A stretch of DNA of 64,000 nucleotides from a virus (IMGVR_UViG_3300029305_003072); one strand, 5' to 3'. Shown: positions 34,112 to 64,000, numbered from the stretch's first letter. Numbers and translations are program-made. The notes: generated by a model not told the origin, from the sequence alone.

Positions 34112-34140
34112 TGACTCAAGAAAAATTTTCTGGTATAATA
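34112..34140 (+). promoter_or_regulatory. rightward promoter TTGACT-17-TGgTATAAT at the head of the late operon
   Basis: TTGACTcaagaaaaattttctggTATAAT; it is divergent from the 33990-34022 leftward promoter. Confidence 0.7.
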
Positions 34141-34167
34141 AAAGTATGAAAGACTGGAGGTAAAGTA

Positions 34168-35220
34168 ATGACCAAATTAAATTATACTTTAGAATCTCCA
34201 GAAGAAAGAAAATAGTTAGTCGAAAAAATTTTAGAAGAGTGTCCCAATCCTACTCCCTAGTACCTTGAGACACTTGCGGACTACCTAGTTCTTTGCATGG
34301 AGAAACAAGAGAAAAAGGAGCGTAAGCTATTAACTGAGAACCGAATGGCCACAGTCAATAAACGTGAAACTTCTTTCGAAGGTCTTGTTTCCCAACTCGA
34401 AAATGGCGAAGATGGCATTTATGGAATGATTAGTAATGATAAGAATTAGATTTTTCAACCAAAAGTAATGATAACAAAGAAAGATGTAGAAGAGATACCT
34501 GGGTTAGCACAATTAAGAGAAGCCATTAAGATGTGGGAACAGAAGTTAAAGACTACTTCCGGGCGTGATGCTTTTATCATCAAGACTGCGATTATCGAAT
34601 TACGAAAGGACCAATATATTCTTAAAGATGCCTATCGTAAACCAATAATCCCCAAAAATATCACCCGCTCGAAACACTTTATACCTTTAGAAAGCGACTT
34701 TGATTTTGACGATGAAGGTTATGTGATTCCAGAGGGTGTTTCTTTATGTGACCCGAAAGTCGTTTCAGCAATCTTATGTAACTACTCCTTAATGAAGCAA
34801 GAAAGTTGGGGAGAGTTTGAAAAGGATTTGTGGTATCTTATGTAGGAATTTGATGAAGTTGCGGATGCAGCTTTAAAAGATTATCCTTTATATGACCGCA
34901 TTTGTGAATACAAAGTTGATGGGTTGCAAAATATTGACATTCAAGAAAAACTTCAAATGGAATTTGGGATTAAACATAGTGTTGAATATATTTCAAGTTT
35001 ATGGAGAAATAAAATTCCAAAATTAATAGCTTCCGAGGCGGAAGATAGATTACTTAACTGGTATTTTTTAAATGAAATGAAAGGTAAGTATAAGAAGTGC
35101 AGCCGCTGTGGAGAAATTAAATTAGCACATAATAAATATTTTAGTAAGAATAAGACTTCAAAAGATGGCTTTTACAGTATTTGTAAAAAGTGCAGAAACT
35201 CTAAGGCCAAAAAGTCATAA
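34168..35220 (+). CDS. hypothetical protein (~350 aa) with C-terminal zinc ribbon (CSRCGE...CKKCRN); 4 in-frame TAG
   Basis: ATG 34168 after GGAGG; the pieces 34168.., 34468.. and 34924..35220 are all in one frame and are separated only by TAG. Confidence 0.6.
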
Positions 35221-35262
35221 TTCCGGCCTTGAATTTTCATTATAAGTAAAGGAGGAATTTTT

Positions 35263-36480
35263 ATGGCTGAAAGCTTTTATTGTGAAAAATGTAATCGAAC
35301 AATGAACGCTGATTAGTTCTATGGGTCTAATAATACAAGTAAGTATCCAGAAGGTAAGTTGCATAAATGTAAGAAGTGTGCGACGATGCATGTAGATAAT
35401 TTTAATCCAGATACTTATTTATGGATTTTACAAGAATGTGATGTTCCATATGTTCCAGAAGAATGGAACAAGTTACTGGCATCATATGGTAAAGACCGTT
35501 CTAAATTAACTGGTACGACTATTGTAGGTCGTTATCTTTCAAAGATGAAACTAAAGCAGTTTAGAGATTATCGTTGGAAAGATACTGAGTTCTTACAAGA
35601 AGTCGCAAATAAGAAAATTGAAGAAACTATGAAGCGTTAGGGATATGAAGCTGCGGAAATCGCTCAAGCGCTCGCCACGGCTAGTGTTCCGATTCCCCAA
35701 GGGGAAATTGAAATTCCTGTTTACCAGGAAACTAATGATAATCCATTCCTGTCGTCTGGAGACGACTACTTTGCGGAGCAAAGTGGAGGCCAAGACGATT
35801 TTGTGGATGATTTAACTGAAGAAGATAGAACATATCTTCGATTGAAATGGGGTAAAACCTATAAGCCAGAAGAGTGGATTAGACTTGAATAGTTATATGA
35901 AGAAATGATGCAATCATATGATATTCAAGGCGCCGGACACATTGATACTTTGAAATTAGTATGTAAGACATCTCTCAAGGCGAATCAATTAATCGACATT
36001 GGCGATATTGAGGGCTTCCAGAAGATGAGTAAAGTTTATGACAGTTTAATGAAGTCTGGTAAGTTTACTGCGGCTCAGAATAAAGCTGAGTCTGGCGAAT
36101 TTATTGATAGTATTGGTGAATTGGTTGCTCTCTGTGAGAGAGAGGGATTTATTCCTAGATATTATATTGATGAACCAAATGATAAAGTTGATAGAACATT
36201 ACAAGATTTACAGAGTTATACACGCGATTTAATTAATGAAGAGACTAACTTGAGTTCTATGATTGAACACGCTCTTCGTGAAATTGAAAAAGATAAGGAA
36301 AATGAAGCTAAACTTGAGTCCGATGATGGTTCTGAGGACGAAGATGCATTTGAAGCTTCTCTATTCGAAGATAATGCTGAGAAAGTTTTACATGATGAGG
36401 ACTTTACTGCTTTTAATGATTTCGAAGATGAGCTTGCGGATGATGATGAAGCTTTCTTAAAATCAATTTTAGGTGGATAA
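35263..36480 (+). CDS. hypothetical protein (~405 aa): N-terminal zinc finger (CEKCN..CKKC), acidic C-terminus, 3 in-frame TAG; small-terminase candidate
   Basis: ATG 35263 after AAGGAGG; the frame is continuous through TAGs at 35638 and 35890; it lies immediately upstream of terL. Confidence 0.55.
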
Positions 36481-36482
36481 TT

Positions 36483-38219
36483 ATGGCACTGCAGGATTTA
36501 TTGAATTTATCACAATCTCGTAAAAAGGTTGGTCTTTCTGAAGAAAGAGTGCGTGCCATAATTCCTGTAGCCAGAGACTATGTAGCTTACTGGCGAGAAT
36601 ACCCAGATATGTTTATTGACTTCTTACAAGATGGTGGTAATCCAGAAGTTAAGAAGGAATTAAAATTTTATTTCTATCAACGAGTTTTCTTACGTGCGGC
36701 AATGCGATATAAATATGTTTACATGGTATTCCCCCGTGCGTATTCTAAATCTTTCCTTTCTATTATGGTTTTGATGTGCCGTTGTGTTTTATATCCAGGG
36801 GCAAAGTTATTTGTTACATCTGGTGGTAAAGAGTAGGCAGCTGGCATCGTAAAAGAAAAGGTTCAAGAAATTTGTACTCTAGTACCTGCGTTCCGTCGAG
36901 AAATTGACTGGGGTCGAGGTAAAACACTAGAGGGTAAAGACTATTGTAAATATGTCTTTAAAAATGGTTCTTATTTCGATAATATTGCGGCTCGTGAGAG
37001 TTCGCGTGGTAAGCGTCGTCATGGAGGACTAATTGAGGAATGTGTTGGCGTTGATGGTACCATCCTTTCTGAAGTTATTATTCCTACCACTAACGTTTCT
37101 CGTAGATGTTTAGATGGAACTGTTCATCCAGAAGAGACGCTGAATAAGAGTCAGATTTATGTCACAACCGCAGGATGGAAAAATACTTTCCCATATGATA
37201 AATTAATTACCTTACTTGTTCGTATGGTAACCGAGCCTGAAAAAGCAATTATCATGGGTGGTACTTGGCGAATTCCTGTTTTGGTCAAATTGCTTGATGC
37301 GAATTTTATTAAAGATTTAAAGAATGACGGAACTTTCAATGAAGCTTCTTTTGCTCGTGAATATGAGAGTCGTTGGTCTGGTACTGTTGAAGATGCATTC
37401 TTTAATGGTGAGTTCTTTGATAGAAATCGTAAGTTACAGAAACCTGAATATGAGCATTCCGGCAGGAGTGCGGCGAACGCCTACTATATCCTATCAGTTG
37501 ACGTAGGTCGTAAGGGATGTGACTCTGTTGTTTGTGTATTTAAGGTAACCCCTCAAGCACAAGGTCCCGCAATTAAGTCTTTGGTTAATATTTATACTTT
37601 TGCGGATGAACATTTTGAGGACCAGGCAATTAGAATTAAGAAATTATATTATAAGTATAAAGCCCGCACAATCGTAATCGACGGTAATGGTCTTGGTATT
37701 GGATTAGTTGACTATATGATTAAATCTCAAGAAGATGAAAATGGTGACTTCTTCCCAGACTTTGGTGTTGAGAATGATGAAGATGGTTATTATAAAAAAT
37801 ATCGAACTGCAAATACTGAGTTTGATGCTATGTATATTCTAAAAGCAAATGCTCCTATTAATACTGAGTGTCACGCAAATGCGCAGACTCAGCTACAAGC
37901 CGGTAAGGTAAAATTCCTTATTGACGAGCGTGGAGCTAAGGAAAAATTATTGGCAACTAAAATGGGACAAAATATGAAGCCTGAGGAAAGGGCAGAATAT
38001 TTAAAACCATTTACCTTAACTTCCATATTAAAGGAAGAGATGATGAATTTGCGTGAAGAAAATGAAGGCGTAAATATCATCTTAAAACAAGCTAATCGTG
38101 GAATTAGGAAAGATAAATTTTCCGCTTTTGAATATGGTCTTTATTATATTAAGCAAGAAGAAGATAAAAAGAAAAAGAAAAAGAAGTTTAATGCCGCTGA
38201 TTGGGCATTCTTCAATTAA
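36483..38219 (+). CDS. terL: terminase large subunit (~578 aa), one in-frame TAG at 36835-36837
   Basis: The ATPase region (FPRAYSKSFLS, GLIEECVGVDG, IYVTTAGW) and nuclease region (VIDGNGLGIGLVDYM, ILKQANRGIRKDKFSAFEYG) are both present. The start and stop of the two track pieces are in the same frame. Confidence 0.8.
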
Positions 38220-38230: not shown

Positions 38231-38587
38231 ATGAGAGCTTCGAGAGGAGAAATTAAGATTGAAGAAATCTTAAAGGAAGCTGAACTCCCCTTTAAAATGG
38301 AGTATATCTTCCCCGACTTAAAGAGCCCAAATGGTCGCCCTTTAAGATTTGATTTTGTCGTTTTTGATGATGATGGAAAAATTGATTTTATTATTGAGTA
38401 TCAAGGTAAGCAACATTATGAGCCTAGTGCGAAATTCGGTGGTAAAAAAGGTTTCTTCCAACAATAGTATAATGATAATCAAAAACGACGCTTTTGTGCT
38501 TTACATGATTTTAAGTTGATTGAAATTCCATATACTGACGAAAATTTAATCTCCTATGACTATATTATGAATTTAGCAGGATATTAA
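38231..38587 (+). CDS. DUF559-like endonuclease-domain small protein (~118 aa), one in-frame TAG
   Basis: RFDFVVFDDDGKIDFIIEYQGKQHYEP..FGG...NQKRRFCALHDFKLIEIPY parallels the C-terminus of 30636-31451. Confidence 0.45.
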
Positions 38588-38601: not shown

Positions 38602-40257
38602 TTGGAGTTGAGTAGACAAGAAGAAATCCGTTCAAAAGGTTTTAATATGATGGATAATCGAATTACCGAATATGGTAAGATTAAAATCAATACTAAAACT
38701 TTGGATGATGCTGTTTTAAATCTTGGCGCGATTCAAGGTGTTACCCGTGGCGTTATTAATAAGGCTATTATTTATCGTGCTTTGATGGATAACGATGTTG
38801 TCCGTTTGCGTGAGATTTCTAATTATTTCTATAAGGCTAGCGGTATTTATCAACGTGTTTGTAATTATGCGGCAACCATGTATAGATATGACTGGTATGT
38901 TGTACCTGAAGTATTTGACGAGGCTGCTAAGACAAATGAGAAGATTTTAACTGATTTGAATAAAGTCCTCCATTATCTTGATAATTCTTACATCGCTAAA
39001 GTTTGCGGTGATATTGCTCTTGGAGTTGTGAAGAATGGCGCTTATTATGGCTATATTGTTCATAGTCCAAAAGGAGTAATCATTCAAGAACTTCCCATTA
39101 ATTACTGTCGTAGTCGTTTCAACCAAGGTAATTTACCTGTTGTTGAATTTAATATGAAATTCTTTGATTAGGCTTTTCCAGACACCACTTACCGTATGCA
39201 AGTATTGAATATGTTCCCTGACGAGTTTAAGAAAGGCTATGTCGCTTACAAGAGTGGAAAGTTGAGTAGACAGAAGTCTCTTGGTCAAGACCCAACCGTT
39301 GGTGGTTACTTGGGTAGCCGTTGGGTGGACGATTCTGGTTGGTGGATGCTGGAACCTCAGAACACTGTGAAATTCAGTTTCGCTAATGGTGGCAATGGTG
39401 CCGCCGACATCCCTTTATTTATCAACGCTATTCCTGCAATTCTGGATTTGGATGCGGCTCAAGATTTGGACCGTAGAAAGCAAATGCAGAAATTGTTGAA
39501 AATTGTAGTCCAGAAGTTACCAATGGATAAAAATGGAGATTTGATTTTCGACGTTGATGAAGCAAGAGATATTCATAATAATGCTGTGCAAATGTTAAAG
39601 CGTGCGGTCGGCGTCGATGTGTTGACCACATTTGCAGACATTGATAGTATTGATATGTCAGATAAAAATACCACTACTTCACAAGATGATTTAGCTAAAG
39701 TGGAGCGTAGTGTGTTTAATGCTCTTGGTATTTCTCAGAATATGTTTAATACCGATGGTAATTTGGCATTAACTCAATCTATTTTAAATGATGAAGCTGC
39801 TTTACGCACATTATTATTACAATTTGAGATTTTCTTTGATAGAATCACTCAATCATTGAGTGGGGCAAAGAAGAAATATAACTTCAGATTATATATGCTG
39901 GAAACCACACAATATAATTATAAAGAGTTAGCTAAGATGTATAAAGAACAAGTCCAAATGGGATATTCAAAAATGTTACCCCAAATTGCGTTGGGTCACT
40001 CCCAGAGCTTTATCTTAAATACTGCTTACTTTGAGAATGAAGTTATGAAGTTGAGTGAGATTATGATTCCTCCTCTAATGTCTTCTACTATGAAAATGGA
40101 AGATTTAAAAGGTGGGGGCAATTCTAATTAGACTCAAACAAATAAAACTCAAACTAATACAGGAGGATAGACTTCTGAGAAATCTGCGGGCCGTCCGGAA
40201 AAACCAGACTCCGAGAAATCTGAAAAGACTATCCAAAATAAAGAATCTATGAGCTAA
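38602..40257 (+). CDS. portal protein (~551 aa), 3 in-frame TAG
   Basis: TTG start after AAAGGAGG. It has the size and position expected after terL, and its frame is continuous through TAGs at 39169, 40129 and 40168 before ending at TAA 40255-40257. Confidence 0.6.
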
Positions 40258-40270: not shown

Positions 40271-41809
40271 ATGCCAATGCATACAAGTATTAAATTGGAC
40301 ACACCTGTTGAATTTATCAATATCACTCCTCTTAATCCTTTGATTTCTAAATGTCAAATTAAAGTGTGTTATGTTGGTGATGAACCAAATCGTAATAGAA
40401 GTATTATTACCAAGGAGACTGCTAAACAAATGGCAAACTCCCTCCCCGGCTGCCCTATTGTCGGATTTTATAATGAAGAAAAGGGCGACTTTGAGGAGCA
40501 TAACCGCATTATTGATATTTCAAATGGTAAGTTTGAAATTAAGGATACAACTAGACCCTATGGATTTGTTGATTTAAATGCTAAGGTTTGGTTTCAAAAG
40601 TTTTTAGATGATGGAATGAATGAGCGTGAATATATGATGACTGAAGGCTGGCTATGGACTGGTCAGTATCCCGAGTGTCGTAGAATTTTATCCCAGGGTA
40701 ATAATCATTCTATGGAACTCGATGAAGACACAATTGATGCACATTGGTCAAAAGATGGTAATGGAGAACCTAAATTTTTCATTATCAATGAAGCAATTAT
40801 CTCAAAACTTTGTACATTGGGTGTGAATAATGAACCTTGCTTCGAAGGTTCTACTATTGGTGCCCCTGTAATTCAATTCGCTTTTGCTGATGGTTTTAAA
40901 GAGCAAGTATTCTCTATGATGAACGAATTGAAAGAATTACTAAATAAAGGAGGAGAAAAAGTGTTTACTAGATACGCTGTTGAAATCGGTGACGCTTTGT
41001 GGACCGCTCTTTATAGCCATGTAGAAGGTACTTACGGCATTGAGAGTGTCTGTGAAGACGAGGGACAGAAGCTATTTGCTGTTCTAACTGCCGATGAAAA
41101 GTACTATCGTCTTGATTTCTCCGTTGCCGAAGATGGCTCTGTTGTGTTTGCGGCCGAGGCTCAGTTATTGGAGGATTATACTCCAGCTGAAGAGCCACAG
41201 TTCGACGCAGCCGCAGTTGCTGAATATGCTAAGTCAAAGAAGGACGAGGGTAAGAAGCCCGAGGACGACGATGATGAGGGCGGCGAAGAGGAAAAATGCC
41301 CTAAGTGTGGAAAGAAGAAGTCCGAGTGTGAGTGCGAGGATGACGACGATTCCGATGATGAGGACGAGAAAAAGAAAAAGCAGGGCAAAAAGGAAAAATA
41401 CAATCTTGAGGAAATTCAAGAATATGTAGAGCTAAGCAATAAATATTCTGCTTTAGAGACTGATTATGCTAATGCACAGTCCACTATCACTACTCTACAG
41501 AGCCAGCTAAATGAGTTGACTACTTTCAAGAAGGGTATTGAGAAGGCAGAAAAAGAGAAGATGATTGCAAGTTTCTATATGCTTTCTGATGAAGATAAGA
41601 AAGATGTCGTAGAAAATATTGACAAATATTCTCCAAAAGAAATTGAAGCAGAGCTTTCTATTTTATGTGTTCGCAACAAGGTCAGTTTCAACCTTGATGA
41701 TGATAAGAACGATGGCAAAGACCCAATGACCTTTAGTTTAAATGGTGGCATGAATGATGATGCTCCAGCTTGGATTAAAGCTATTCGTTCTGTTGCGAGT
41801 GAAATGTAA
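40271..41809 (+). CDS. head morphogenesis protein, scaffold-like (512 aa; acidic coiled-coil C-terminus with a CPKCGKKKSECEC motif); no TAG
   Basis: Position between portal and capsid genes; the C-terminus is a long Glu/Asp/Lys-rich coiled coil. Confidence 0.45.
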   Translation: MPMHTSIKLDTPVEFINITPLNPLISKCQIKVCYVGDEPNRNRSIITKETAKQMANSLPGCPIVGFYNEEKGDFEEHNRIIDISNGKFEIKDTTRPYGFVDLNAKVWFQKFLDDGMNEREYMMTEGWLWTGQYPECRRILSQGNNHSMELDEDTIDAHWSKDGNGEPKFFIINEAIISKLCTLGVNNEPCFEGSTIGAPVIQFAFADGFKEQVFSMMNELKELLNKGGEKVFTRYAVEIGDALWTALYSHVEGTYGIESVCEDEGQKLFAVLTADEKYYRLDFSVAEDGSVVFAAEAQLLEDYTPAEEPQFDAAAVAEYAKSKKDEGKKPEDDDDEGGEEEKCPKCGKKKSECECEDDDDSDDEDEKKKKQGKKEKYNLEEIQEYVELSNKYSALETDYANAQSTITTLQSQLNELTTFKKGIEKAEKEKMIASFYMLSDEDKKDVVENIDKYSPKEIEAELSILCVRNKVSFNLDDDKNDGKDPMTFSLNGGMNDDAPAWIKAIRSVASEM

Positions 41810-41836
41810 TAAAAACTAAAAGGAGGAAATATAGAA

Positions 41837-42721: not shown

Positions 42722-42738
42722 GAAAGGAGAGAAGAGTA

Positions 42739-43851: not shown

Positions 43852-43882
43852 TTAAATATTAATATATAACTAAGAGGGGGAA

Positions 43883-43923: not shown

Positions 43924-43945
43924 CAGAGAAAAAGGAGATATAAAA

Positions 43946-54000: not shown

Positions 54001-57000
54001 CAACAGCTTGGGATAAAATTAGTGCAGTAATCAGTGTTGTAATCGGTATTTTACCAGTTGCATCAACTTTAATGACAATGTTTGGTACTACTGCAGCAAC
54101 AGCAGGTGCAACTGCGAGTGCGGGTATGACCGCTGCGTTAGGTTCAATTGGTTGGATTATTTTAGCAGTAACAGCATTGATTGCAATTTTTATTGCTTTA
54201 GGTTCTGCGATAGCAGCAAATTCTCCAGAAGGATAGCTGAAGAGTGCACAAGAAGCCACTGAAAAAACTGCACAAGCGGCACAAAATGCAAAAAGTGCTT
54301 ATGAAGAATTGTTAGCTACTATCAATAGATATGATAGTGCAAAAGAATCGTTAGAAGGATTAGCTAAGGGTACCGAGGAATATACGGAAGCTCTCATGGA
54401 GGCTAATGCTGCGGCAAGAGAATTAATTGATACTTATGAATTAACAAGTGATTAGTTCCATGTGGATGAAAATGGTTTAATTCAAATTGATGAAAATGCT
54501 CTTTAGACAAAGAAAGATGAACATCGTGAAAGAGTTGAAAAAACTTCTAGTGCATTAACAGGCGCTTAGAAATATGAGAATGAAAAAGAAGACGATGTTA
54601 CTATTTCTAATATTCGAAAAGAAGCTAATAAGGATTCCATGTATTATGGGTCTGATTATTAGAATTATTTAATCTCTGATACTAATATTGAAACTGTATT
54701 AGCTGCGGCCAGAAATGCAGAAGGTGGTTCTGATGCTTATTTCGCTGAAGGTGAAAAAAATATTGCAGCAACAATGGGATGGGACCCAGATGCATTAACA
54801 ACTTATTAGCAAGATTTTATAAATGCATTAATGGAAAATTCCGCGGCCCTATCTGAAGCAAATGCAGCAATTTTAGCAAACGCAGCGGCCAATGAAGCTG
54901 CTACAAAAGCATAGTTGGCGCAAAATTTGAGTGATGAAACTGCATTTTAGGACAGTGAATATCAAGATGAGTTATTAGAAGCTGCATTAAATACTCAAGG
55001 GACTGAGGAATCAGAAGCTCAAGATAAGCTTGACGGAATGACTCAAGACCAAATGTATGATGCTTATGCTGAAATGATGGGCTATACCAATAATGGTATA
55101 GGTACTTGGTTAGATGGTAAGCAAGAGTTCTTGGATGCTGACGGAAATCCAATTGAGTTAACTCCAGAGCAAGTAGAAGCTCAAATGCGTGAAATGTACG
55201 CGCAAGAGGGTATGGAAGAAAATGCATTAAATCTTGTAGATACTATGAATCAAGTAATGGCACGAGCTGATGAAAATAAAGGTGTTATTAGTACTGCTAT
55301 TACTGGAGATACAGAAAAATTAACTATTGGTTAGTAGGGTATGAGTGCAGATGAAGTTGCTGCTATGGTTACTGATGAAGAAGCTCAAGCGATGGGCTTT
55401 GAAAGTGCGGCAGCTTTTGGAGAATCATTTGCTTCTGCTACAGAGAGCTTTGCTGGTGAATGGCAATCTTTAATGGGAAATTATGTTGACTCCGTTTCTG
55501 ATTAGATGCAAACCATGTTTGATAATGGAGAGTTAGATAATCTAACTCTTGGACAGTCAGAAAATTTAGCAAATGCTTTTGAAACTGCATATGCAACTAG
55601 TGGATAGGCTGGTATGGATGTATTGGCTAAGATGTTTACTGATGCTGGTGAATATTCTGACGAATTTGCAAATGCTCTTGGAACTATAGACTGGAGCACT
55701 GCTACCCCAGAGACTTTACAAGACGCATTGGATGCCGCGGGTGTTGCTACTCATTATACTGCTGATGAATTAAATAATTTAATTAATGTAATGAACGAAG
55801 GAGCTATGGGCTTCGAAAATGCTGCAAATAAATATAAAACATTATCTGAGATTGTTGATTCATTAAAATCTGGTGATACTATTACAGCTGAGCAATTTAA
55901 AGAATTGGGTCCAGGTATGGAAGATTATTTCATGCGAATGGCTGATGGTACTTATAAATTAATTGGTGATGCAGAAGCTTTCTATGCTGCTGTTAATGAA
56001 TAGTAGTTGGAAGGTTTTGAAAATACAATTACTGCAAAAACTGAAGATAATGCAGAAATTGAAAATGTATTAAATCATGATATTAGCTCTTTGGGTAAGA
56101 TGGATAGTACTACAATGGGTGGTCATGTTTACACTGGAAATGGACAATTTGTTTAGAATACTGATGTAGCTAATGCTCAATTAAATTTCTTAGAGTAGAC
56201 TGGCTATGACCCCGCTCAAGTTCAACAATGGCGTGATGATATGTAGGCTGGCACTTTAGATGTTAAAGCATTGACAACTGCTGTGAATGAACAAACAACG
56301 TCTCTTGGCGGAGCAGCAGCTGCAGAAGAATATTTAACACAATAGCTGGATGCTAATAATACAGAAATTGAACAAAGTAAAGAGGCTATTGCATCTACGG
56401 CTACATCTTTAGATGAATTAGATTAGATGTTGCAAGATGGTAAGATTTCTGTAGAAGCATATGATAAAGCTGCCTAGGGTGCTTTTGAAAAAGAAGTTGA
56501 AGCTGAGGGTTTCGACACTGAAGAACTTAATAATTATGTTGATGCATTAATTGAATCTGGTAAATTCTTAGAAGAAAATCGACAAGAAGCTCAAAAATTT
56601 GCTTTAGCTCAGTATCGGATGGAAAAAGGATGCACTGAGTTGGTTGAAAGTTATGAAGATTGGGACAAAGTTTTATCAGATAATGAAGCTAGTTTAAAAG
56701 ATATTAATAAAGTTATGCCAAAAGTAAATTCTATGTTACAAGATATGATGGACTTATCTGATGAAGAATTTGCTTTATTACCAGATAATTTTGCTCAAGA
56801 TAATTGGAATTTAATTCAAGACGTTTATAATGAAGTTGATGGAGCTTATGAAGCTTTAAGAGCAAAAATAACAGAAGAAATTGTTATGAAGGTTGTACTT
56901 GATGAATCTGCTTAGGGTCAAGTTATGACAGAAGTTAATAATTTTTTAGCCAATGTTAATTTGGATGATATTGAAGTTGGAGCAACTTTAGATTCCACTG

Positions 57001-60000
57001 GATTTGCAGCTGGTTTATAGGGATTATTGGATTCTGGCGCAGTAACTGTAGAACAAATGAATGACATTTTATCAGGTATTGGTTATGAACCAATTATTGA
57101 ATATGAACAAGTAGCAGTTAGTTCTTTTGCCCGTCAAAGCCAATAGGGTTATATTCAAGTTGCAGGTGTTGATGGAAGCATTGAATATGTGCCAATTACA
57201 TCTGACATGGATATTAGTGGTGAACAATATGTATATGTTCCAAAAATCGGTAGTTCTAAATATAAAGGCGGCGGTGGTGGTGTCGCTGATGCTAAAGCCA
57301 ATAAAGGCGGTGGCGGAGGAGGCGGTGGCGGCTCCAAGCCAAAGAAAGCCGACAAAGTAAAGAAAACTGATGTTGTTGACCGATATAAAGAAATTGACGA
57401 TAAACTTGATGACATTGCAGATAAAATGGATGATGCTTCTAAGGCTGCTGACCGTCTATGGGGTCCTGCACGTTTAAAGCAAATGAAAAAAGTTAATGAT
57501 GCTTTAGAAGAAGAAATTGATGCATTAAAGAAAAAACGAAAAGAAGCACAAGATAATCTTGATATTGATAAAAAAGCTTTGAAAGATACTATTAGTGCAG
57601 AAGCAGGAGTTACAATTACAGACGCAGATTTTGACGCAGAAGGCAATTTCACTAGATATGATGAAGTTTTAACTGATTTATATAATGAAATTGATGCTGC
57701 TATAGAAGCGGCCAATGCTGATGGTAATGCTGATGAAGATGAACAAGAAAAAATTGATAAAATTCAAGAGCGTATTGATAAAGTAAAAGAAGCAATTGAC
57801 CAATATGATGAAACTCGTGAATTAATTGAAGATTTAGACAATGATATTCAAGATAAAATTTACGAATGGCAAGATAACAATTATGAACAATTAAATTATA
57901 AACTTGAATATGAAATTGAAATTAATGATTCTGAACTTGAATTATTAGAATATTATATGGGCAAAGCTGAAGGTAATATTTATAAAACTGCAGAAGCTTT
58001 TGGATATTTAGCTGGACAAGCCGATATTTATACTGATAATTTAAAGCATCAAGAAGAATATGTTAATGAATTAACTAGGGCTTATTATGCTGGTGAAATT
58101 TCTATGGATGCATATAAGGAAGGTTTGCGTGAAGCTCAAAGTGCAACCATTGAAAACTTATAGGCATTAGAAGAACAAAAGAAAGCTATGCAAGAGTATT
58201 ATGGTGAAGTAATGGATATGGCTCTTGAAGAAATTTCTTTGTATACAGATGAAATGGAAGAGTTAAATTCTGTTCTCGACCATTATTCTAATATTCTTGA
58301 ATTAGTTGGTAAGCAAGAAGATTATGCAACCAAGGGTAAAGTTTTACAATCCAAAGCCGCAAATCTTCGCAATGAAATGCAAGTCCAACAAAAACTTTAT
58401 GAAAAGTCTAATGCCGAAGCTGAAGATTGGGCTGCTAAAATGGCAACAGCAATTGAAGGTTCTAATGAGTATGAAACTTATAAAAAGAATTGGATTGCGG
58501 CCCAAGAGGCAGCTAATGAAGCTCAAGAAAATATGTTAAGTAAGACTGAAGAGTGGGCTGAAGCAATGAAGGCAGTTATTGAAAATGAATTAGCTGGATT
58601 AGCTAAGACCATGGAAGAGTCTTTAACGGGCGGAACTTCATTTGATGAGTTATTAACTTCTATGGAGCGCCGCAGTAGTCTACAAGAAGAATATCTAACA
58701 ACTACAAATCAAATTTATGAAACTAATAAATTGATGCGTCAAGCTCAACAAGAAATTGATAAAACTACTAACTCTGTAGCAAAGCGAAAGTTGGCTAATT
58801 TCATTAATGAAACAGAATAGATGCAAAATCAAACTGAGTTAAGTCAATATGAGTTAGATATCCAGTAGGCCAAGTATGATTTACTTTTGGCTGAAATTGC
58901 ATTAGAGGAAGCTCAAAGTGCTAAATCTACTGTTCGCTTACAGCGCGATAGTGAAGGCAATTTTGGTTATGTTTATACTGCGGACCAGTCTGCGGTCGGT
59001 GAGGCCGAACAAGAATTGGCAGATAAGCAAAATGCTCTTTATAATCTTGGATTAGAAGGTGCTAATGATTATAGTCAAAAGTATGCTGAAACCATGCAAG
59101 AAGCTCAAGATGCTATTACTGAATTAACAGAAATGTGGATGAATGGTGAAATTGAGTCTGAAGAAGAATATCAAAGACGCAAGGCTGAAATTCAGGATTA
59201 TTATTATGAGAAATTAAAGCAATATTCAAGCTTATATCAAGTAGCATTAACTACTGATAGTAATGTTATCAAAGATGCTTGGAGTACTGACTTTAGTGAT
59301 ATGATGTATAAGACTGAAGATTGGAAAGTCGCAACTGATGATTACTTTGCCGGAGCTGCTGAAAGCATGAAGACCTGGGCTGAAGTTTGTGGAACCGTTC
59401 TTGAGGAATCTGGTCTTGATGACGTAAGTAAAAAGGTTGAAGAAATCAATACCAAGAGTGAGAATTTGAAAAATACTCTAATTGGTGAAGATGGCGAGAG
59501 CGGCGTTGTTGGTGCAATGATGTCTGAAGTTGAAGCTGCGGGTAAGTTAAGTGAAGCTTATATTGGCATTCAAAATCAAATTGATGAAGTTATTAAGAAG
59601 TATGAAGAAATGATGGGTGTAATTAATGAAGATTATACCAATGAAAATACTCCTGAAGTTACTCCTGCGATTACTCCAGACCCTGAACCCGAGCCAGAAG
59701 AACCAGTTCCTGAACCAGAGCCTGAACCTGAGGAGGCCACTGTTCCTGAATTAAAGGTTGGTTCTACAGTTACCGTTAAGAAGAGCGCAAGCAGATGGGC
59801 TACTGGAGAAGGTATTTGGAATCCAGTTAAGGGCAACAATTTCAAAGTTAAGAAAATTAATGGAGAAAAAGTTCTTATTGGAGACCCTTCAGGTCCTAAC
59901 TATAGTGCTTCTGGCATTACAGGTTGGATTAAGAAAACTGACCTAGAGGGCTTTGCTACTGGTGGCTACACTGGAGACTGGGAAGGTTCTTATGGTAAGT

Positions 60001-60293
60001 TAGCAATGTTACACCAAAAAGAATTGGTGCTAAATGCAAATGATACTGAAAACTTCTTGCAAGCAATGGATATTCTTGATAAGATTGTTTCTGCTATTGA
60101 TTTGTATAGTATGAATTCTCAGCTTGGTGGAGCTTTATCTAGTCCGTCTCTTGGAAATATGGGCGGTGGAGATGTCCTTGAACAACAAGTACATATTGAA
60201 GCTAGTTTCCCAGGAGTACAAGATAGAAACGAAATCGAAGAAGCATTTAATACTCTTATCAATAGAGCATCTCAATATGCTAATCGTAAATAA
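51018..60293 (+). CDS. tail tape measure protein, ~3091 codons, containing ~50 in-frame TAG
   Basis: Nine ORF-track pieces (51018, 51687, 52194, 55038, 55614, 56619, 57189, 58188, 58887) share one frame. Codon-by-codon reading shows only TAG interruptions and a single TAA at 60291-60293. The protein has Ala/Gln/Glu/Lys-rich coiled-coil composition, Gly-rich (GGGGGVADAKANKGGGGGGGGGSKPKK) and Pro/Glu-rich (PEPEPEEPVPEPEPEPEE) linkers, and a conserved-looking C-terminal domain. Confidence 0.8.
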
Positions 60294-60356: not shown

Positions 60357-60385
60357 TGACTTTTCACAAATTTTATAGTATAATA
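60357..60385 (+). promoter_or_regulatory. promoter TTGACT-17-TATAAT
   Basis: TTGACTtttcacaaattttatagTATAAT. Confidence 0.65.
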
Positions 60386-60417
60386 GATTAAGGAGAGAAA
60401 GGAGAGTTTGAGTATTT

Positions 60418-63400
60418 ATGGCAATTGAAGTTGATAATCTATTTCAAGCACTAGATATTATTTTAGATTAGCGCTTGCAAAATATGAATTATGATAAAAC
60501 CGATGTTTGTATTATTACTGATGATAGAGATGCTAAAAATGGTCACTATTGGGTTTCTCCAAACAATGGTGAAACTAGATATGAAGCATTTAGTGAGTCA
60601 GAAGAATATAAAAAAGGTGAGAGTGTCAGAGTTTCTATTTTAAATGGAGATTATACTCAAAAGAAATTTATCGTAGGTAAATATGTAGTAGATGATGCTA
60701 TTACTCCCATTACTTATGTTTCTCCTCTAGATACGGTTATTGATGTTACTGGAAATATGATTAGTGAAGCCAAAGCTAATGCTCAATATGGTTTAATTTC
60801 AAATGGTACAGTATCAGAAATTCCGATTTGGAGTGCGGATTTGGCTTTAGACCAATCTTATAAAGATTTACAAGCCAGTGGCATTTATAATACTATTAGT
60901 TTATCTGCTAATTTTAAAACTTTATTAGATAACTATGATATGCGTTCAGGCTCTTTTGGATTGCGCCTAGATGTATATGTAAAATTAAATCCAAGTAGTG
61001 AAAAATATATTGTTCGCTCTGTGTATATGGATAGTTCTGAAATGTTTGGTAATCCATATGCTTTTACACTATATTCTCCCCAGAGTAGAAAATATGATTT
61101 AAGTCAGCTTGGTGCCGTTGAAAAATTAAGTTTATGGTTTTATCAACGAGGAGATTTTTCTTATTATGATTCAAATCAAAGACAAACAGTTAATATTGAT
61201 TATAAAAAAATTCCAAGAGAAAATATTTTATTGAGAGATATTAAAATTGGATTTGGTAGCGATTTGACTATTGTTCAAGATAATACAATTCAAGCTTTTA
61301 CAACCAATTCTTCTACTTATAGATTAATTGTTACTAAAGCAGATAATGAAAAAGGATTAGGATTTTTGTGGTATAACAAAGATGAAAACAATCAATATTT
61401 GGGATACAGCGATGGCATTGTTGATTTTGAATATAAGGATGGAAATGTTGTTTATACCAATAAGCTTGATAAAAATTAGAATAAAGTAACTCAAGATGTT
61501 CTTGATGAAAAGAAACGAGCTATTTTAGAATTTGCTAAGGATGATAAGGATAATGTTATCCTAGTCTCTGTATTAGATGATGATGGATATGAAATTTCTT
61601 TTGATGATTTAAAAATCACTATTGACGATGCTTTAATCATTTTAGCAAATGAGGTTAGTAATTTAAAACTCCAATTACAAATTCAATATGACAATGAAGA
61701 AATTGGTTTTAATGAGTTCATAGCTCGTAAATCAGATATTGATAATTATGAGCGAGTTAAACGGACTTATCTTAATACTAATTATTCTAATGAAGAGCTT
61801 GAGCAAGCTATTGAGAGCCAGCGTAGTGCAGAATTGGAGGGTTTAAGATTACAATTCGAAGCTGGTGCTTTTGGCGAAGGCGATGAAGCAAATTAGAGAT
61901 ATAATAAAGAAATAGCAAAAGTTAATGATTTATATAACAATAAGCGTGCTGAATTAAGAAATTATAGAGTTCAAAAAACCTATGTTCTTTAGAAGAAATA
62001 GCAAGATGTAATGATACAAAAAGTCGCTCCATATGATGAGTTTAAATATATGGAAGAAAGCGAAACAGATGCTCGTTTAACCGCACAAGCCGGCAAAGAA
62101 GGCGTTCCTTCTGATGCTAAGAGTTTAAAATTATCTGCAGATTTGGCTGAAGTTAAGCCTTTAATGACTAAAACTTTTGATTTAGTTACCAAAGATTTAA
62201 CTGCGGTGCTCCGTCAAATGCGCGACCGCACGAACTCTATCGCAGATATCACTACGGCTTTAAATGCATTACTATTAACTCCTACCAAGGATGCCGCAGG
62301 ACAAATCCACGGTACGGAAAGAAATAACATTCTTGCTTGGTATGATTTTACTGATGCAATGAGAGAAGAAATGTATGGTGTTTATACAGAACTTCTAGAA
62401 TATAATTATTTACATTAGGAAAATTTAAAGAAACTTCCTGCAGAGCAAGAAACTGATGCTATCCTTAGAGAGAAAATGGGAGAGCATTTACAAGCTTGGA
62501 ATAAATCTGATTTATATTTAAATATTCAAAATAGTTTTAAGTCTTCTTTAATTCCAATGATAACTAACTTTTTTACAAATGCTCAAACTACAATTGATGC
62601 AAATTATAGTGGTTATCAAGGTATTTATGATACTTATAAAACTAAGGCTGATAAAATAATTGTTCAAATTAATGAGAATTTAAATAAAATGTGGGCAATT
62701 GTTGATGACAATAATGCTATTATGGTAGACATGAGACCTTATAATAATGGCCGCGTATATTTAGATTATAATAAAAAAGATTTATCTAACTATGATAATC
62801 GTTATGCAATCTATTGGTATAGATATGAGCCTGGATACACAAGTGATGATAGATTATATCCAACTGAATGGAAACGTTTAACGACAAAAGCTGATTTCGG
62901 TATTGATGAGTCTGATGAATTAGTATATAACTTTGGATTACCAATTTATGATGATTTTGTTTTAAGAGATGGACAATACTATTTTTCTGATAAGGTTCAA
63001 GGAACCAATGTCTCTGCAATTCGCATGATGGATGGACAGAGAGTAAATGAAAAATATAAAATTGTTTTATTCTATAATCACGAAATGTATGAAAGTAATG
63101 AAGTAGAATTTACTAATTTAGATGATGTAGTTGACCCAACCACAGCAGATAAGAATGATGCTATTGTTATTACTCACGGCACGAATTCACAAGATACTTA
63201 CCAGAGTTATGGTTTAAGTAATTTCTTGGTAAATGCGGCCGACGCAAGTAAGGTGCGAGAATTATCTGTGCATTATGAAGGTATTCTTGCAGGAGATGAA
63301 GCTTTAGCTAATACACAAGTATATTGGTATATTCCAAATACTGCTACTATGTTAACTTGCGATGATAAGCATTTAACTGAAACTTTAGGTTTTTATTCTG

Positions 63401-64000
63401 ATTTAAATATTTCAGACGGAGAAAAACCTGATTATAGTAGAAATGGTTATACTTGTTATTATAAAACAATTGGTGTAGAAACAGTGCAAATTACAGATGA
63501 CCCAGAAACAGAAGAGGTTGAATCTGGAGAAAAAGTTACTGCAAAAGCAAGTGATTTAACATTCACTTATAAGATTAAAGATTATTATTTATCTACCTCA
63601 AGCCGCAATGAAATTTTCTGTAAGGTAGTAAAGGATGAATATACATTTGAGACAAGTATTGTTTTGGCATTTACGTCTCTTGGAACCAGTGGTACTGATT
63701 ATACATTGGCAATTACTCCTTCTACAACTCAAATTGCAACTTATGCTTCTGGATATTTGCCATTAAATATTGTTTTATATGATTATAAAAATAATACTAT
63801 TCCTATGACTACAAATTTATTATCGACAGTAAAAGATGGAGCATCTAACTTTAAGTTAGGTTGGGAAGGACCACACTCCTATGATTTTGCTACATTATCT
63901 GATGCCGATGATAATATCGTTGGAGCGAATATTCAATTAACAACTTAGCCATAGGATAATAATAGTTTAATTTATGGTGTTTTAAAAGCAACTGTTGATT
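60418..64000 (+). CDS. large tail protein (distal tail/baseplate/fibre candidate), >=1194 codons, continues beyond window end; >=8 in-frame TAG
   Basis: ATG 60418 after AAAGGAG. One frame stays open to the window end with no TAA/TGA; the 61480-62010 and 62419-62475 gaps were checked codon by codon. Track pieces 60475, 62011 and 62476 are in this frame. Confidence 0.6.

What the first reader, a model, noticed from the sequence alone, without database searches (positions are those of the whole stretch)
34112..64000. TAG is a sense codon throughout the late structural operon (about 90 in-frame TAGs); genes terminate only with TAA/TGA
From 34168 to the window end every rightward gene keeps a single open frame that is interrupted only by TAG. 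Per-gene TAG counts are terL 1, portal 3, the 49109-50278 gene 10, tape measure about 50, and the last tail gene at least 8. TAG-TAG doublets occur, for example at 55333-55338 and 56002-56007. There is essentially no competing ORF on other frames or strands. The leftward early genes use standard stops. This is the signature of amber-recoded phages (TAG read as an amino acid, Gln in most described cases) that switch code for late expression. The decoded amino acid cannot be read from DNA alone.
Basis: partly seen in the sequence, partly recalled or inferred. Interest (0 to 1): 0.95.

Follow-up and report, generated by a model that had tools for sequence, protein, structure and literature searches.

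The report
Amber-recoded (TAG=Gln) phage late operon
The rightward half of this window is the late structural operon of a large gut siphovirus that reads the stop codon TAG as glutamine. This is a real but already described phage trick, and here the phage also carries its own release factor 2 gene.

Summary
On the + strand from 34168 to 64000, 19 genes (9,704 codons, 98% coding) contain 89 in-frame TAG and no in-frame TAA or TGA. All 18 complete genes end in TAA (17) or TGA (1).

TAG means glutamine. Relatives have Gln or TAG at the conserved TAG sites, and TerL site 118 is Q in 65 and TAG in 5 of 70 relatives. Two cultured standard-code phages have Q at that site. A likelihood test over 20 sites puts Gln first by 13 units. 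In the reverse direction, 2,166 in-frame TAGs in relatives lie opposite the window's Gln at 13.8-fold enrichment.

The window also holds the start of a phage release factor 2 gene (1-771, minus strand), which reads UAA and UGA but not UAG. An identical public contig shows that gene followed by a tRNA array.

I did not find a suppressor tRNA(CUA) for this phage. More distant relatives do carry one.

The genes for abundant virion proteins, including the major capsid and tail tube proteins, avoid TAG across the whole clade.

The phenomenon is known (genetic code 15; Borges 2021, Peters 2022, Babkin 2023), and public gene calls already translate this phage with TAG=Q. This is a new member of a known kind, of modest interest.

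The parts
1..771 (-). N-terminal 257 codons of a phage-encoded class-I release factor of the RF2 type. The gene is cut by the window edge; the full 360-aa gene is seen in the identical contig L082.
   Evidence: prfB TIGR00020 scores 276.5 bits (E 2.9e-82) against 147-158 bits for prfA. The PCRF and RF-1 Pfam domains match, and the SPF and GGQ motifs are present. The gene is TAG-free with a strong Shine-Dalgarno site, and it is a single ORF with no +1 frameshift site. L082 is 100% identical over 3,257 bp.
1300..1346 (-). A copy of the AT-rich sigma-A-like promoter class (TTGATT ... TGATATAAT), upstream of the small gene 844-1131 and of RF2. The same element recurs through the tRNA array of L082.
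   Evidence: Repeat families D7, D8 and D16. Copies in L082 and L098 were found by blastn. The promoter function is inferred from the consensus only.
31524..32048 (-). Leftward DUF7352 gene with an in-frame TAG at codon 99. It shows that TAG is also read as sense outside the late operon.
   Evidence: Pfam DUF7352 match. Homologs in L121 and in L002, L004, L005 and L006 align over residues 1-171 or 1-174, across the TAG. The gene abuts the next gene.
34000..34028 (-). Leftward consensus promoter (TTGACA-17-TATAAT, TG-extended).
   Evidence: 12 of 12 match. Function is inferred.
34111..34139 (+). Rightward consensus host-type promoter (TTGACT-17-TATAAT, TG-extended), just upstream of the first late gene.
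   Evidence: 11 of 12 match. Function is inferred.
34168..35220 (+). R01, 350 aa, 4 TAG with the first at codon 16. It belongs to a PHROG family annotated 'sigma factor' and has a C-terminal Cys4 zinc-finger-like motif.
   Evidence: phrog_5767 E 2e-51, match spanning the TAGs. The exact protein with Q at the TAG sites is in public data as P0241. The function is not verified: there is no PDB or Pfam match, and the AlphaFold model has pLDDT 40.
35263..36480 (+). R02, YonG-like, 3 TAG.
   Evidence: phrog_3314 matches residues 2-345. The homolog carries Pfam YonG_N. TAG site 126 is Q in 54 and TAG in 10 of 68 relatives.
36483..38219 (+). Terminase large subunit (YonF-like), 1 TAG at codon 118.
   Evidence: About 50% identity over 94-99% of its length to Enterococcus phage H1 and Geobacillus virus E3 TerL. 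Both have Q in the motif SGGKE-Q-AAG at the TAG site. Among relatives, 65 have Q and 5 have TAG, of 70.
38231..38587 (+). Small gene of about 118 aa, nuclease-like (DUF2726-type motif), 1 TAG.
   Evidence: ORF scan with TAG as sense. A 118-aa gene is called at the syntenic place in L121.
38602..40257 (+). Portal protein (YonE-like), 3 TAG.
   Evidence: phrog_2739 E 1e-81, residues 15-549 matching profile positions 11-495 of 501. tblastn against phage portal proteins.
40271..44566 (+). Four TAG-free genes: R05 (YonD-like), R06, R07 (major capsid protein, YonB-like) and R08.
   Evidence: Precomputed Pfam YonD_N and YonB hits. R07 homologs are annotated as major capsid protein in Bacillus phages Kirov and PJN02. 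These genes have 0 TAG, and three of them prefer CAG.
44586..47994 (+). Five genes: R09 (1 TAG), a small gene at 45151-45459 (1 TAG), R10 (2), R11 (YomW-like, 1; the only TGA stop) and R12 (YomV-like, 5, including a TAGTAG doublet).
   Evidence: PHROG matches run through the TAGs. R12 site 43 is Q in 37 and TAG in 20 of 58 relatives. Pfam YomW and YomV hits.
48021..49025 (+). R13, tail tube protein (YomU-like), TAG-free.
   Evidence: Pfam YomU_Tube. phrog_2729, virion structural protein. It has 0 TAG, 0 CAA and 11 CAG.
49109..50885 (+). R14 (389 aa, 9 TAG, no family assignment) and R15 (YomO-like, TAG-free).
51018..60293 (+). Tape measure protein, 3,091 aa, 50 TAG. TAGs make up 37% of Gln-type codons in codons 1-2100 and 6% in the last 1,000 codons.
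   Evidence: phrog_4211 is hit by both the N-terminal and C-terminal parts. The gene is called as one 3,091-aa protein with PhageMin_Tail in public data. TAG distribution.
60418..64000 (+). First 1,194 codons of a 2,547-aa tail protein, 8 TAG so far.

Best explanation
Window 34168-64000 is the late (virion) operon of a large SPbeta-like siphovirus. The genome is probably 140-200 kb, comes from animal or human gut, and probably infects a Clostridia host. The operon is written in genetic code 15, in which TAG encodes glutamine and only TAA and TGA terminate.

Shown here:
- TAG is a sense codon.
- It stands where relatives have Gln.
- It is nearly absent from the leftward early genes, both as a sense codon and as a stop.
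- The phage encodes its own RF2, which reads UAA and UGA only, in the TAG-free leftward arm next to a tRNA array.
- Genes for the most abundant virion proteins (capsid, tail tube and neighbours) exclude TAG across the clade, and three of these genes (R06, the major capsid protein R07 and the tail tube R13) use almost only CAG for Gln.

Inferred from the layout and from published models:
- After infection, host RNA polymerase transcribes the leftward genes from many consensus promoters.
- A phage tRNA-Gln-like suppressor with anticodon CUA, not found for this phage but present in more distant clade members, then competes with host RF1 at UAG.
- Phage RF2 keeps termination at UAA and UGA efficient and independent of RF1.
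- Only then can the TAG-bearing proteins be completed: the terminase, portal, tape measure and tail proteins, and the first operon gene R01, whose first TAG is at codon 16 behind a host-type promoter. TAG therefore acts as a translational timer for late functions.

RF2 is an accessory, not a requirement. A relative about 95% identical in the late region is recoded in the same way, but it has no RF2 at the syntenic site.
For: - Sense status: 89 in-frame TAG against 0 TAA and 0 TGA in 9,704 codons, with 98% coding density.
- Full-length matches through the TAGs.
- Gln identity at individual sites: TerL site 118 is Q in 65 and TAG in 5 of 70 relatives, R02 site 126 is Q in 54 and TAG in 10 of 68, and R12 site 43 is Q in 37 and TAG in 20 of 58.
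- Likelihood over 20 TAG columns: Gln -48.1, next best Glu -61.3.
- In the reverse direction, relatives have 2,166 in-alignment TAG against 14 TAA or TGA. These lie opposite window Gln at 13.8-fold enrichment and opposite window TAG at 18-fold.
- Cultured standard-code phages have Q at the TerL TAG site.
- In a relative about 95% identical, 6 of the 7 differences at sites where either phage has TAG are TAG/Gln swaps.
- RF2 identity. The full gene followed by 13 tRNAs is in the identical contig L082.
- Early-gene stops are 41 TAA, 17 TGA and 2 TAG.
- Six TAG-free genes carry 63 Gln codons, P about 1e-6 at the pooled rate. Across the clade, TAG/(TAG+CAR) is 0.004-0.02 for four of them (R06-R08, R13), against 0.17-0.36 for R01-R04 and R09-R12. 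R05 (0.127) and R15 (0.105, only 7 loci) are not TAG-poor clade-wide.
- Consensus promoters at the divergent junction and about 25 more in the early arm.
- tRNA(CUA) is present in clade members L089, L094, L123, L125 and in phAss-1. It was not seen in the roughly 20-kb stretches of the arrays examined in two standard-code relatives.
- The relative without RF2 is still recoded.
- Literature: Borges et al. (bioRxiv 10.1101/2021.08.26.457843), Peters et al. (PMC9523058), Babkin et al. (PMC10607447).
Against: - No tRNA(CUA) was found for this phage: none in the window, none among the 13 tRNAs of L082, and none among the 29 ARAGORN-called tRNAs (or extra Rfam tRNA hits checked) of the close relative L098. 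Both arrays run beyond the sequence I could reach.
- Two pattern scans for the clade's known suppressor types hit none of the 80 nearest relatives.
- Timing is not measured.
- At least two leftward genes contain TAG, so 'early = standard code' is only a tendency.
- R01's regulatory role rests on a PHROG label alone.
- RF2 does not by itself reduce RF1 action at UAG, so its benefit is conjectural.
Confidence: 0.85

Rival explanations
1. TAG is an ordinary stop. The pieces are separate short genes or pseudogene fragments of a decaying prophage.
For: Under code 11, 72% of the region is still covered by ORFs of at least 100 codons. Older GenBank annotation of the relative phAss-1 lists many short 'hypothetical proteins'.
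Against: - All 89 interruptions are TAG, never TAA or TGA (P about 1e-71).
- The frame never changes across a TAG.
- Profiles and homologs align straight through the TAGs.
- The same TAG positions are conserved or swapped with CAA/CAG in dozens of relatives.
- No Shine-Dalgarno site or start codon follows the TAGs.
Confidence: 0.005
2. TAG is a sense codon but encodes an amino acid other than Gln, for example Glu, Lys, Tyr, Trp, Leu, Ser or pyrrolysine.
For: - Several TAG sites are variable, with E, K, T or N most common in relatives.
- ARAGORN labels CUA tRNAs 'Pyl' by default.
- The clade's roughly 90-nt CUA tRNAs carry a long extra arm, a feature of the Leu, Ser and Tyr tRNA classes.
Against: - Gln wins the likelihood test by 13 units over Glu and by more than 20 over all other residues.
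- The strictly conserved sites are Q only (TerL 118, R02 126, R12 43).
- Relatives' TAGs sit opposite window Gln at 13.8-fold enrichment and opposite no other residue above 1.4-fold.
- The CUA tRNAs have a tRNA-Gln-like acceptor and D arm.
- Published proteomics on other code-15 phages found Gln (PMC9523058).
Confidence: 0.03
3. There is no switch. TAG is read as Gln throughout infection because the host itself, or the cell state, already reads it that way. The early/late difference in TAG content is only a codon-usage or ancestry effect.
For: TAG is essentially never used as a terminator anywhere in the 74 kb seen. A few leftward genes contain TAG. Recoded and standard-code relatives are interleaved, suggesting gradual drift.
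Against: - No bacterium with TAG=Gln is known (general knowledge).
- Published host predictions for such phages point to standard-code Firmicutes or Bacteroidetes (Borges et al.).
- The phage invests in RF2 and a large tRNA set placed in the TAG-free arm.
- TAG makes up about 20% of Gln-type codons in the late genes, against near zero in about 60 early genes.
Confidence: 0.06
4. This lineage recodes TAG without a dedicated suppressor tRNA. It would inactivate or outcompete host RF1, so that near-cognate tRNA-Gln(CUG) reads UAG, while phage RF2 takes over termination at UAA and UGA.
For: No CUA tRNA was seen among the tRNAs examined in this phage and its close relative. The known suppressor types are absent from the 80 nearest relatives. 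Borges et al. detected suppressor tRNAs in only about 40% of TAG-recoded genomes. RF2 is present here.
Against: - The tRNA arrays were only partly visible, because of an assembly break at a mobile endonuclease.
- More distant clade members do carry tRNA(CUA).
- A recoded close relative lacks RF2 at the syntenic site, so RF2 cannot be the core of the mechanism.
- 50 TAGs in one essential 3,091-aa protein demand very efficient decoding.
Confidence: 0.1

Closest known systems
Genetic code 15 (TAG to Gln) recoded gut phages: crAss-like, Lak, Agate and other clades (Ivanova 2014; Borges et al. bioRxiv 10.1101/2021.08.26.457843; Peters et al. PMC9523058)
   Same: - In-frame TAG is concentrated in structural and late genes, aligns with Gln, and is not used as a stop.
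- The early genes are compatible with the standard code.
- The phage carries large tRNA sets.
- RF2 was reported in Lak phages and in two TAG-recoded Agate phages.
- Standard-code and recoded phages are interleaved within one clade.
   Different: - This lineage is not one of the named genomes I could compare, and membership of 'Agate' could not be tested.
- No suppressor tRNA has been found for it yet.
- RF2 is present here but absent at the syntenic site of a relative about 95% identical.
- I did not see a description of the clade-wide exclusion of TAG from capsid and tail-tube genes, together with their CAG preference, in the text I searched.
phAss-1 / proposed 'Phassvirus' group (Babkin et al. 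2023, PMC10607447; NCBI 'Caudoviricetes code 15 clade')
   Same: - It is a large siphovirus of about 136 kb with TAG=Gln.
- The structural genes run rightward and everything else leftward.
- The tape measure protein is about 3,150 aa.
- It has a long tRNA array.
- The predicted host is Clostridia.
- Homologous portal (37% aa identity), TerL (45%) and major capsid protein (45%).
   Different: - It is far too divergent for the same genus: megablast found no match.
- phAss-1 has three tRNA(CUA) genes and no RF2 in the 130 kb I examined, and the paper does not mention a release factor.
- The window's phage has RF2.
Bacillus phage SPbeta and related large Firmicutes siphoviruses (Enterococcus EF1, H1 and VRE9; Geobacillus E3; Brevibacillus Sundance)
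   Same: The structural module has the same order and families: YonG, YonF (TerL), YonE (portal), YonD, YonB (major capsid protein), YomW, YomV, YomU (tail tube), YomO and a very long tape measure protein.
   Different: Those phages use the standard code. TerL shows at most about 50% aa identity.
Bacterial release factor 2 (prfB)
   Same: PCRF and RF-1 domains, the SPF tripeptide and the GGQ motif are present. The best score is to the prfB model.
   Different: The gene is phage-encoded and forms a single uninterrupted ORF, without the programmed +1 frameshift site that autoregulates most bacterial prfB genes (the prevalence of that site is from general knowledge). It reaches 276 bits for the 257 residues in the window, so the curated full-length cut-off of 370 could not be applied.

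Membership tests
Code-15 (TAG=Gln) recoded Caudoviricetes | Conserved genes are interrupted in frame by TAG only, never by TAA or TGA. | tested here: met
   89 TAG, 0 TAA and 0 TGA in 9,704 codons.
Code-15 (TAG=Gln) recoded Caudoviricetes | TAG positions correspond to Gln in homologs. | tested here: met
   Gln is best by 13 log-likelihood units, and cultured phages have Q at the TerL site.
Code-15 (TAG=Gln) recoded Caudoviricetes | TAG is not used as a terminator. | tested here: met
   None of the 18 late stops is TAG. Two of 60 early stops are TAG, both followed in frame by TAA, and one of the two genes is shown to be read through.
Code-15 (TAG=Gln) recoded Caudoviricetes | The phage encodes a suppressor tRNA with anticodon CUA. 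| tested here: inconclusive
   None in the window, in the 10-kb extension L082 or in the close relative's 29-tRNA stretch. Both arrays are incomplete. The tRNA is present in more distant clade members.
Code-15 (TAG=Gln) recoded Caudoviricetes | Recoding is concentrated in late (structural and lysis) genes. | tested here: met
   89 TAG in the late operon, against 1-3 candidate TAGs in about 60 leftward genes.
Code-15 (TAG=Gln) recoded Caudoviricetes | Gln is actually inserted at TAG in the proteins. | not testable with these tools
   This needs proteomics. It has been done for two crAss-like phages only (PMC9523058).
Phassvirus (phAss-1 genus) | Genus-level nucleotide similarity to phAss-1, BK046881 or BK025033. 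| tested here: not met
   Megablast of 24 kb found no match to phAss-1. Portal identity is 37% aa, TerL 45% and major capsid protein 45%.
Release factor 2 (prfB) | PCRF and RF-1 domains, with a better score to the prfB model than to prfA. | tested here: met
   276.5 bits against 158 and 147 bits. PF03462 and PF00472 match.
Release factor 2 (prfB) | SPF stop-codon recognition tripeptide and GGQ catalytic motif. | tested here: met
   'RVSPFDS' and 'SGKGGQHVN' are read directly in the translation.
Release factor 2 (prfB) | Programmed +1 frameshift near codon 26 (typical of prfB but not universal). | tested here: not met
   The gene is a single 360-codon ORF starting at an ATG with a Shine-Dalgarno site. 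The profile alignment is continuous from profile position 2.
SPbeta-like structural module | YonG, YonD, YonB, YomW, YomV, YomU and YomO families in SPbeta order, with a very long tape measure protein. | tested here: met
   Precomputed Pfam hits on the identical proteins.
'Agate' clade of Borges et al. | Placement in the TerL phylogeny with the named Agate genomes. | not tested
Only general traits match: about 130-200 kb, Firmicutes host, mixed codes, and RF2 in two members.

The most novel reading that the evidence does not exclude
This lineage may carry out TAG-to-Gln recoding without any dedicated suppressor tRNA. It would neutralise host RF1 so that near-cognate tRNA-Gln reads UAG, while an optional phage RF2, lacking the usual frameshift, takes over UAA and UGA termination. 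On this reading, TAG density is tuned gene by gene as an expression rheostat: zero in capsid and tail-tube genes, and up to 40-67% of Gln-type codons in low-copy proteins.
Probability: 0.1. Interest if true: 0.75.

Novelty: new member of a known kind. Interest (0 to 1): 0.33.

Why it matters
In practical terms, this window is mis-annotated by any standard-code gene caller. The terminase, portal, tape measure and tail genes break into about 90 fragments, so recognising code 15 is essential for annotating it.

In biological terms, it adds a common, uncultured lineage of SPbeta-like gut phages to the recoded phages. Thousands of near-identical copies exist in public assemblies. It also offers three handles on how recoding works:
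- RF2 is present or absent between relatives about 95% identical, which makes a natural experiment on what RF2 contributes.
- TAG is excluded across the clade from the most abundant virion proteins, which suggests that TAG decoding is costly or slow.
- The first operon gene sits behind a host-type promoter but has a TAG at codon 16, which makes it a candidate translational gate for late expression.

None of this changes the known picture. It makes parts of it testable.

Tried and rejected
**Search for this phage's suppressor tRNA**
1. ARAGORN and Rfam found none in the window.
2. I walked left using the identical IMG/VR contig L082. It has 13 tRNAs and none is CUA.
3. The contig ends at a PF11645 endonuclease. 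That gene exists in hundreds of copies on short contigs and seems to be inserted in a tRNA-Met gene, so assemblies break there.
4. A metagenome scan for L082's end found nothing.
5. Anchoring on a gene inside the array reached only a relative, L098. It has 29 tRNAs and none is CUA. One extra Rfam tRNA hit there is tRNA-Phe.
6. An anchor deeper in the array and a tRNA-Gln/Sup pattern gave no hits.
7. Two scans for the clade's roughly 90-nt CUA tRNA types found 21 and 11 contigs. None belongs to the 80 nearest relatives.
8. Walking right failed, because the code-11 fragment I guessed is not on record.

**Function of R01**
- There is no Pfam or NCBIfam match.
- There is no PDB match by sequence or by a 17-member profile.
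No fold search was run.

**TGA or TAA recoding in the left half**
I considered this because of long frames containing only TGA stops. I rejected it for two reasons. Those frames overlap clear standard ORFs in other frames, and TGA is very common off-frame.

**Context of the base after TAG**
The base following TAG does not differ from the base following CAA or CAG (p = 0.32).

**Host**
MAG bins carrying near-identical capsid genes disagree: Treponema, Acutalibacteraceae, Eubacteriales.

**HDV-like 'theta' ribozymes**
No such ribozyme reached Rfam's gathering score in the window, in L082 or in six relatives' arrays.

Full report
**1. The observation**

Counting stops frame by frame shows that the + strand from about 34150 to the window end forms one nearly gapless series of open frames, but only if TAG is not a stop. 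ORFs of at least 100 codons cover 72% of the region under the standard code. They cover 99% with TAG as sense, 75% with TGA as sense and 79% with TAA as sense.

Nearly every frame begins with ATG a few bases after a strong AGGAGG-type ribosome-binding site. This gives 17 gene models, plus two small ones found later.

Inside these 19 genes (9,704 codons, 98% of the region) there are 89 TAG, 0 TAA and 0 TGA. The two off-frames contain 819 TAA, 908 TGA and 324 TAG. If the interruptions were random stops, the chance that all 89 are TAG is about 1e-71.

The 18 complete genes end in TAA (17) or TGA (1).

- Gene 49109-50278 has 9 TAG, not 10.
- The TAG-TAG doublets lie at 55332-55337 and 56001-56006, one base earlier than stated.
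- A third doublet lies at 47689-47694.

**2. The merged frames are real proteins**

With X at the TAG positions, the merged proteins match profiles across their full length:
- The portal matches phrog_2739 at E 1e-81, residues 15-549 against profile positions 11-495 of 501.
- R01 matches a 393-position profile over residues 29-346.
- R02 and R12 match their families end to end.
- The N-terminal and C-terminal parts of the 3,091-aa tape measure protein hit the two ends of one 2,625-position TMP profile.

The merged TerL aligns over 94-99% of its length, at about 50% identity, with terminase large subunits of cultured standard-code phages: Enterococcus H1, Geobacillus E3 and 'YonF' of Brevibacillus Sundance.

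Public assemblies that carry identical proteins call the TMP as a single 3,091-aa product. They label the module with SPbeta families: YonD, YonB, YomW, YomV, YomU tube, YomO and YonG. Homologs of R07 are annotated as major capsid protein in Bacillus phages.

The region is therefore the late structural operon of an SPbeta-like siphovirus.

**3. TAG encodes glutamine**

A portal search in IMG/VR found 233 relatives. I kept 80 loci with 55-77% portal identity and aligned the window's proteins to them.

At conserved TAG sites, relatives have Gln or TAG:

| Site | Q | TAG | Relatives |
|---|---|---|---|
| TerL 118 | 65 | 5 | 70 |
| R02 126 | 54 | 10 | 68 |
| R12 43 | 37 | 20 | 58 |
| R02 210 | 36 | 21 | 69 |

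Further tests agree:
- I built substitution profiles from the same alignments and scored 20 usable TAG columns. Gln scores -48.1, Glu -61.3, and all other residues score lower.
- In the reverse direction, relatives have 2,166 in-alignment TAGs against only 14 TAA or TGA. These TAGs sit opposite window Gln at 13.8-fold enrichment and opposite window TAG at 18-fold. No other residue exceeds 1.4-fold.
- Two cultured standard-code phages have Q in the motif SGGKE-Q-AAG exactly at the window's TerL TAG.
- A relative 90-96% identical at the nucleotide level has R01's four TAGs at the same positions. Six of the seven differences at sites where either phage has TAG are TAG/Gln-codon swaps.
- The protein collection holds the exact R01 sequence with Q at the four TAG sites (P0241). 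Public pipelines therefore already read this phage in code 15.

**4. The rest of the window**

The left 34 kb has a higher G+C content (0.42-0.48, against 0.30-0.42 on the right). It encodes mostly short leftward genes.

A greedy gene model gives 61 leftward genes. One runs off the window edge. The other 60 end in TAA (41), TGA (17) or TAG (2), and each TAG is followed in frame by TAA.

One of the two TAG cases, the DUF7352 gene at 31524-32048, is conserved well beyond its TAG. A leftward gene just outside the window (L082 7011-7748) has in-frame TAGs (at least two visible in the translation; three counted in the slightly longer open frame).

TAG is therefore avoided in early genes rather than used as a stop, and the split between early and late genes is strong but not absolute.

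The leftmost gene (1-771, minus strand) is a release factor 2:
- It scores 276 bits to prfB, against 147-158 bits to prfA.
- It has the PCRF and RF-1 domains and the SPF and GGQ motifs.
- It is a single ORF without the usual +1 frameshift site.

An IMG/VR contig, L082, is 100% identical over 3,257 bp. It extends 10 kb further left and shows the complete RF2 gene, four more genes, and then 13 tRNA genes.

The divergent junction carries two near-perfect host-type extended -10 promoters. One points leftward at 34028-34000. The other points rightward at 34111-34139, 29 bp before the R01 start. The 'repeats' of the early arm are about 25 further consensus promoters with a conserved leader. A second, AT-rich class lies upstream of RF2 and recurs all through the tRNA array.

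**5. How it probably works**

Shown: TAG is sense and stands for Gln. TAA and TGA are the only terminators. RF2 and tRNA genes lie in the TAG-free arm.

Inferred, following Ivanova 2014 and Borges 2021:
- Early transcription by host polymerase yields the tRNAs, including a suppressor, and RF2.
- The suppressor competes with RF1 at UAG.
- RF2 secures termination at UAA and UGA.
- TAG-bearing late proteins can then be finished.

Three results refine this picture.

First, I could not find the suppressor for this phage. The window has no tRNA by ARAGORN or Rfam. L082's 13 tRNAs and the 29 tRNAs of the close relative L098 include no CUA anticodon. Both arrays continue beyond reachable sequence. The break sits at a mobile PD-(D/E)XK endonuclease that appears inserted in a tRNA-Met gene. 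More distant clade members and phAss-1 do carry tRNA(CUA). It is often a form of about 90 nt with a tRNA-Gln-like acceptor and D arm plus a long extra arm. In two standard-code relatives, the roughly 20-kb stretches of the arrays examined show none.

Second, RF2 is dispensable. The relative about 95% identical has a DUF2726-type gene at the syntenic RF2 site, yet it is recoded in the same way. phAss-1 also lacks RF2 in the 130 kb I examined.

Third, TAG use is graded.
- Six late genes have no TAG despite 63 Gln codons (P about 1e-6): R05-R08, which include the capsid protein, the tail tube R13, and R15.
- Three of them (R06, R07 and R13) use almost only CAG for Gln, and R05 and R08 lean the same way, whereas TAG-bearing genes prefer CAA (TMP 122 CAA to 9 CAG).
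- Across 58-77 relatives, TAG/(TAG+CAR) is 0.004-0.02 for four of these genes (R06-R08, R13), against 0.17-0.36 for R01-R04 and R09-R12. R05 (0.127) and R15 (0.105, only 7 loci) are not TAG-poor across the clade.
- Within the TMP, TAG accounts for 37% of Gln-type codons in the first 2,100 codons and 6% in the last 1,000 (p = 7e-6).

This pattern suggests that TAG decoding is slower or costlier than CAG decoding, so it is selected against where output must be highest.

R01 belongs to a PHROG family annotated 'sigma factor'. It sits behind a host-type promoter and has its first TAG at codon 16, so it could act as a translational gate. Its function could not be verified.

**6. Comparison with what is known**

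TAG-to-Gln recoding of late genes in gut phages is established:
- Borges et al. (bioRxiv 10.1101/2021.08.26.457843) describe the clades, the late-gene bias, the suppressor tRNAs, RF2 in Lak and in two Agate phages, and standard-code close relatives.
- Peters et al. (PMC9523058) give proteomic proof in crAss-like phages.
- Babkin et al. (PMC10607447) describe phAss-1, the closest annotated relative here. It is only 37-45% identical in portal, TerL and major capsid protein, and megablast finds no nucleotide match.
- NCBI taxonomy has a 'Caudoviricetes code 15 clade'.

In my sample, 17 of 81 relatives have no in-frame TAG at all, and they are interleaved with recoded ones. This matches the published picture of frequent code changes.

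The window therefore holds a new member of a known kind. It is not a Phassvirus. Whether it belongs to 'Agate' could not be tested.

**7. Verdict**

The decoded amino acid is now resolved as Gln.

Interest is modest, because the phenomenon is known and public gene calls already handle this phage. Four features may repay follow-up:
- the presence or absence of RF2 between near-identical phages;
- the exclusion of TAG from abundant virion proteins;
- the possible TAG-gated first gene;
- the still-missing suppressor tRNA.

Noticed in passing
window 16500-30300, minus strand (e.g. 16523-16598, 19701-19776, 23551-23626, 26940-27015): There are about 25 copies of a consensus host-type promoter. Read on the minus strand, it is TTGACAAA, a spacer of about 12 nt, then TGTGCTATAAT. 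A conserved leader and ribosome-binding site (GAAAGGAACTGATAC-ATG) follows, in front of nearly every small leftward gene.
   Followed up: partly
window ~1300, 3080, 5309, 6308, 8271, 12714 (minus strand); L082 8124-8199, 8559-8632, 9022-9091, 9526-9604, 11416-11487: A second, AT-rich promoter-like repeat (TTGATT...TGATATAAT...ATGTAAG) is shared by the RF2-proximal genes and the tRNA array. This suggests that RF2 and the tRNAs are co-regulated, separately from the 16-30 kb gene set.
   Followed up: partly
window 19862-19938, 23116-23192, 27082-27158, 29205-29281 (+ strand): Four conserved rightward promoters (TTGACAAATTGC...TGTGGTATAATGG) lie inside the leftward early region and face oncoming genes. 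They may produce antisense RNAs or drive small rightward genes.
   Followed up: no
window 12882-13040: Five iteron-like 36-nt repeats (GTTAAAAAATTAGAC..CTATAT..) are spaced 27-40 nt apart, in an AT-rich gap next to a rightward HTH gene (13093-13707, with a TAG at codon 137). This may be an origin or an operator array.
   Followed up: no
L082 12781-13257 (about 10 kb left of the window): A 137-aa PD-(D/E)XK endonuclease (PF11645) follows the first 43 nt of what is an intact tRNA-Met gene in relative L098, so it looks like an insertion or intron in a tRNA gene. Hundreds of near-identical copies sit on short contigs, and two assemblies break exactly there.
   Followed up: partly
L121 12319-14881: In a relative about 95% identical, TerL is split by an HNH/NUMOD homing-endonuclease insertion that the window lacks. 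Enterococcus phages EF1 and EF5 show the same kind of split.
   Followed up: no
L089 2219-2309; L123 8380-8469; L125 1611-1702; phAss-1 (L086 15443-15533): The suppressor tRNA(CUA) genes of clade members are about 90 nt long. They have a tRNA-Gln-like acceptor and D arm, an unusual long extra arm, and an encoded CCA end.
   Followed up: partly
L091 12471-12543 and 12894-13544; L089 5274-5614; L123 3814-3913: A standard-code relative carries a tRNA with the ochre anticodon UUA and a ROOL RNA (313 bits) in its tRNA array. Other relatives' arrays hold a tmRNA and a skipping-rope RNA.
   Followed up: no
window 51018-60293: TAG density within the tape measure gene drops sharply. TAG is 37% of Gln-type codons in codons 1-2100 and 6% in the last 1,000 or so (p = 7e-6). 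This could reflect mosaic ancestry or local constraint.
   Followed up: partly
window 32539-33351 (-) and 8851-9444 (+): There are two auxiliary metabolic genes. One is a FolD-like methylene-THF dehydrogenase/cyclohydrolase. The other is a formate/nitrite-transporter-like membrane protein whose frame reads TAG, then 7 more codons, then TAA.
   Followed up: no
window 1342-3057 (-) and L082 5537-6943: Two paralogous Cys-rich proteins of 571 and 468 aa flank RF2 and have no family assignment. An M28-like peptidase lies between RF2 and the tRNA array.
   Followed up: no
L130-L132 (genome contigs): Near-identical capsid genes sit in MAGs labelled Treponema (96%), Acutalibacteraceae (89%) and Eubacteriales (86%). 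The phage contigs are evidently binned inconsistently, so the host is unresolved.
   Followed up: partly
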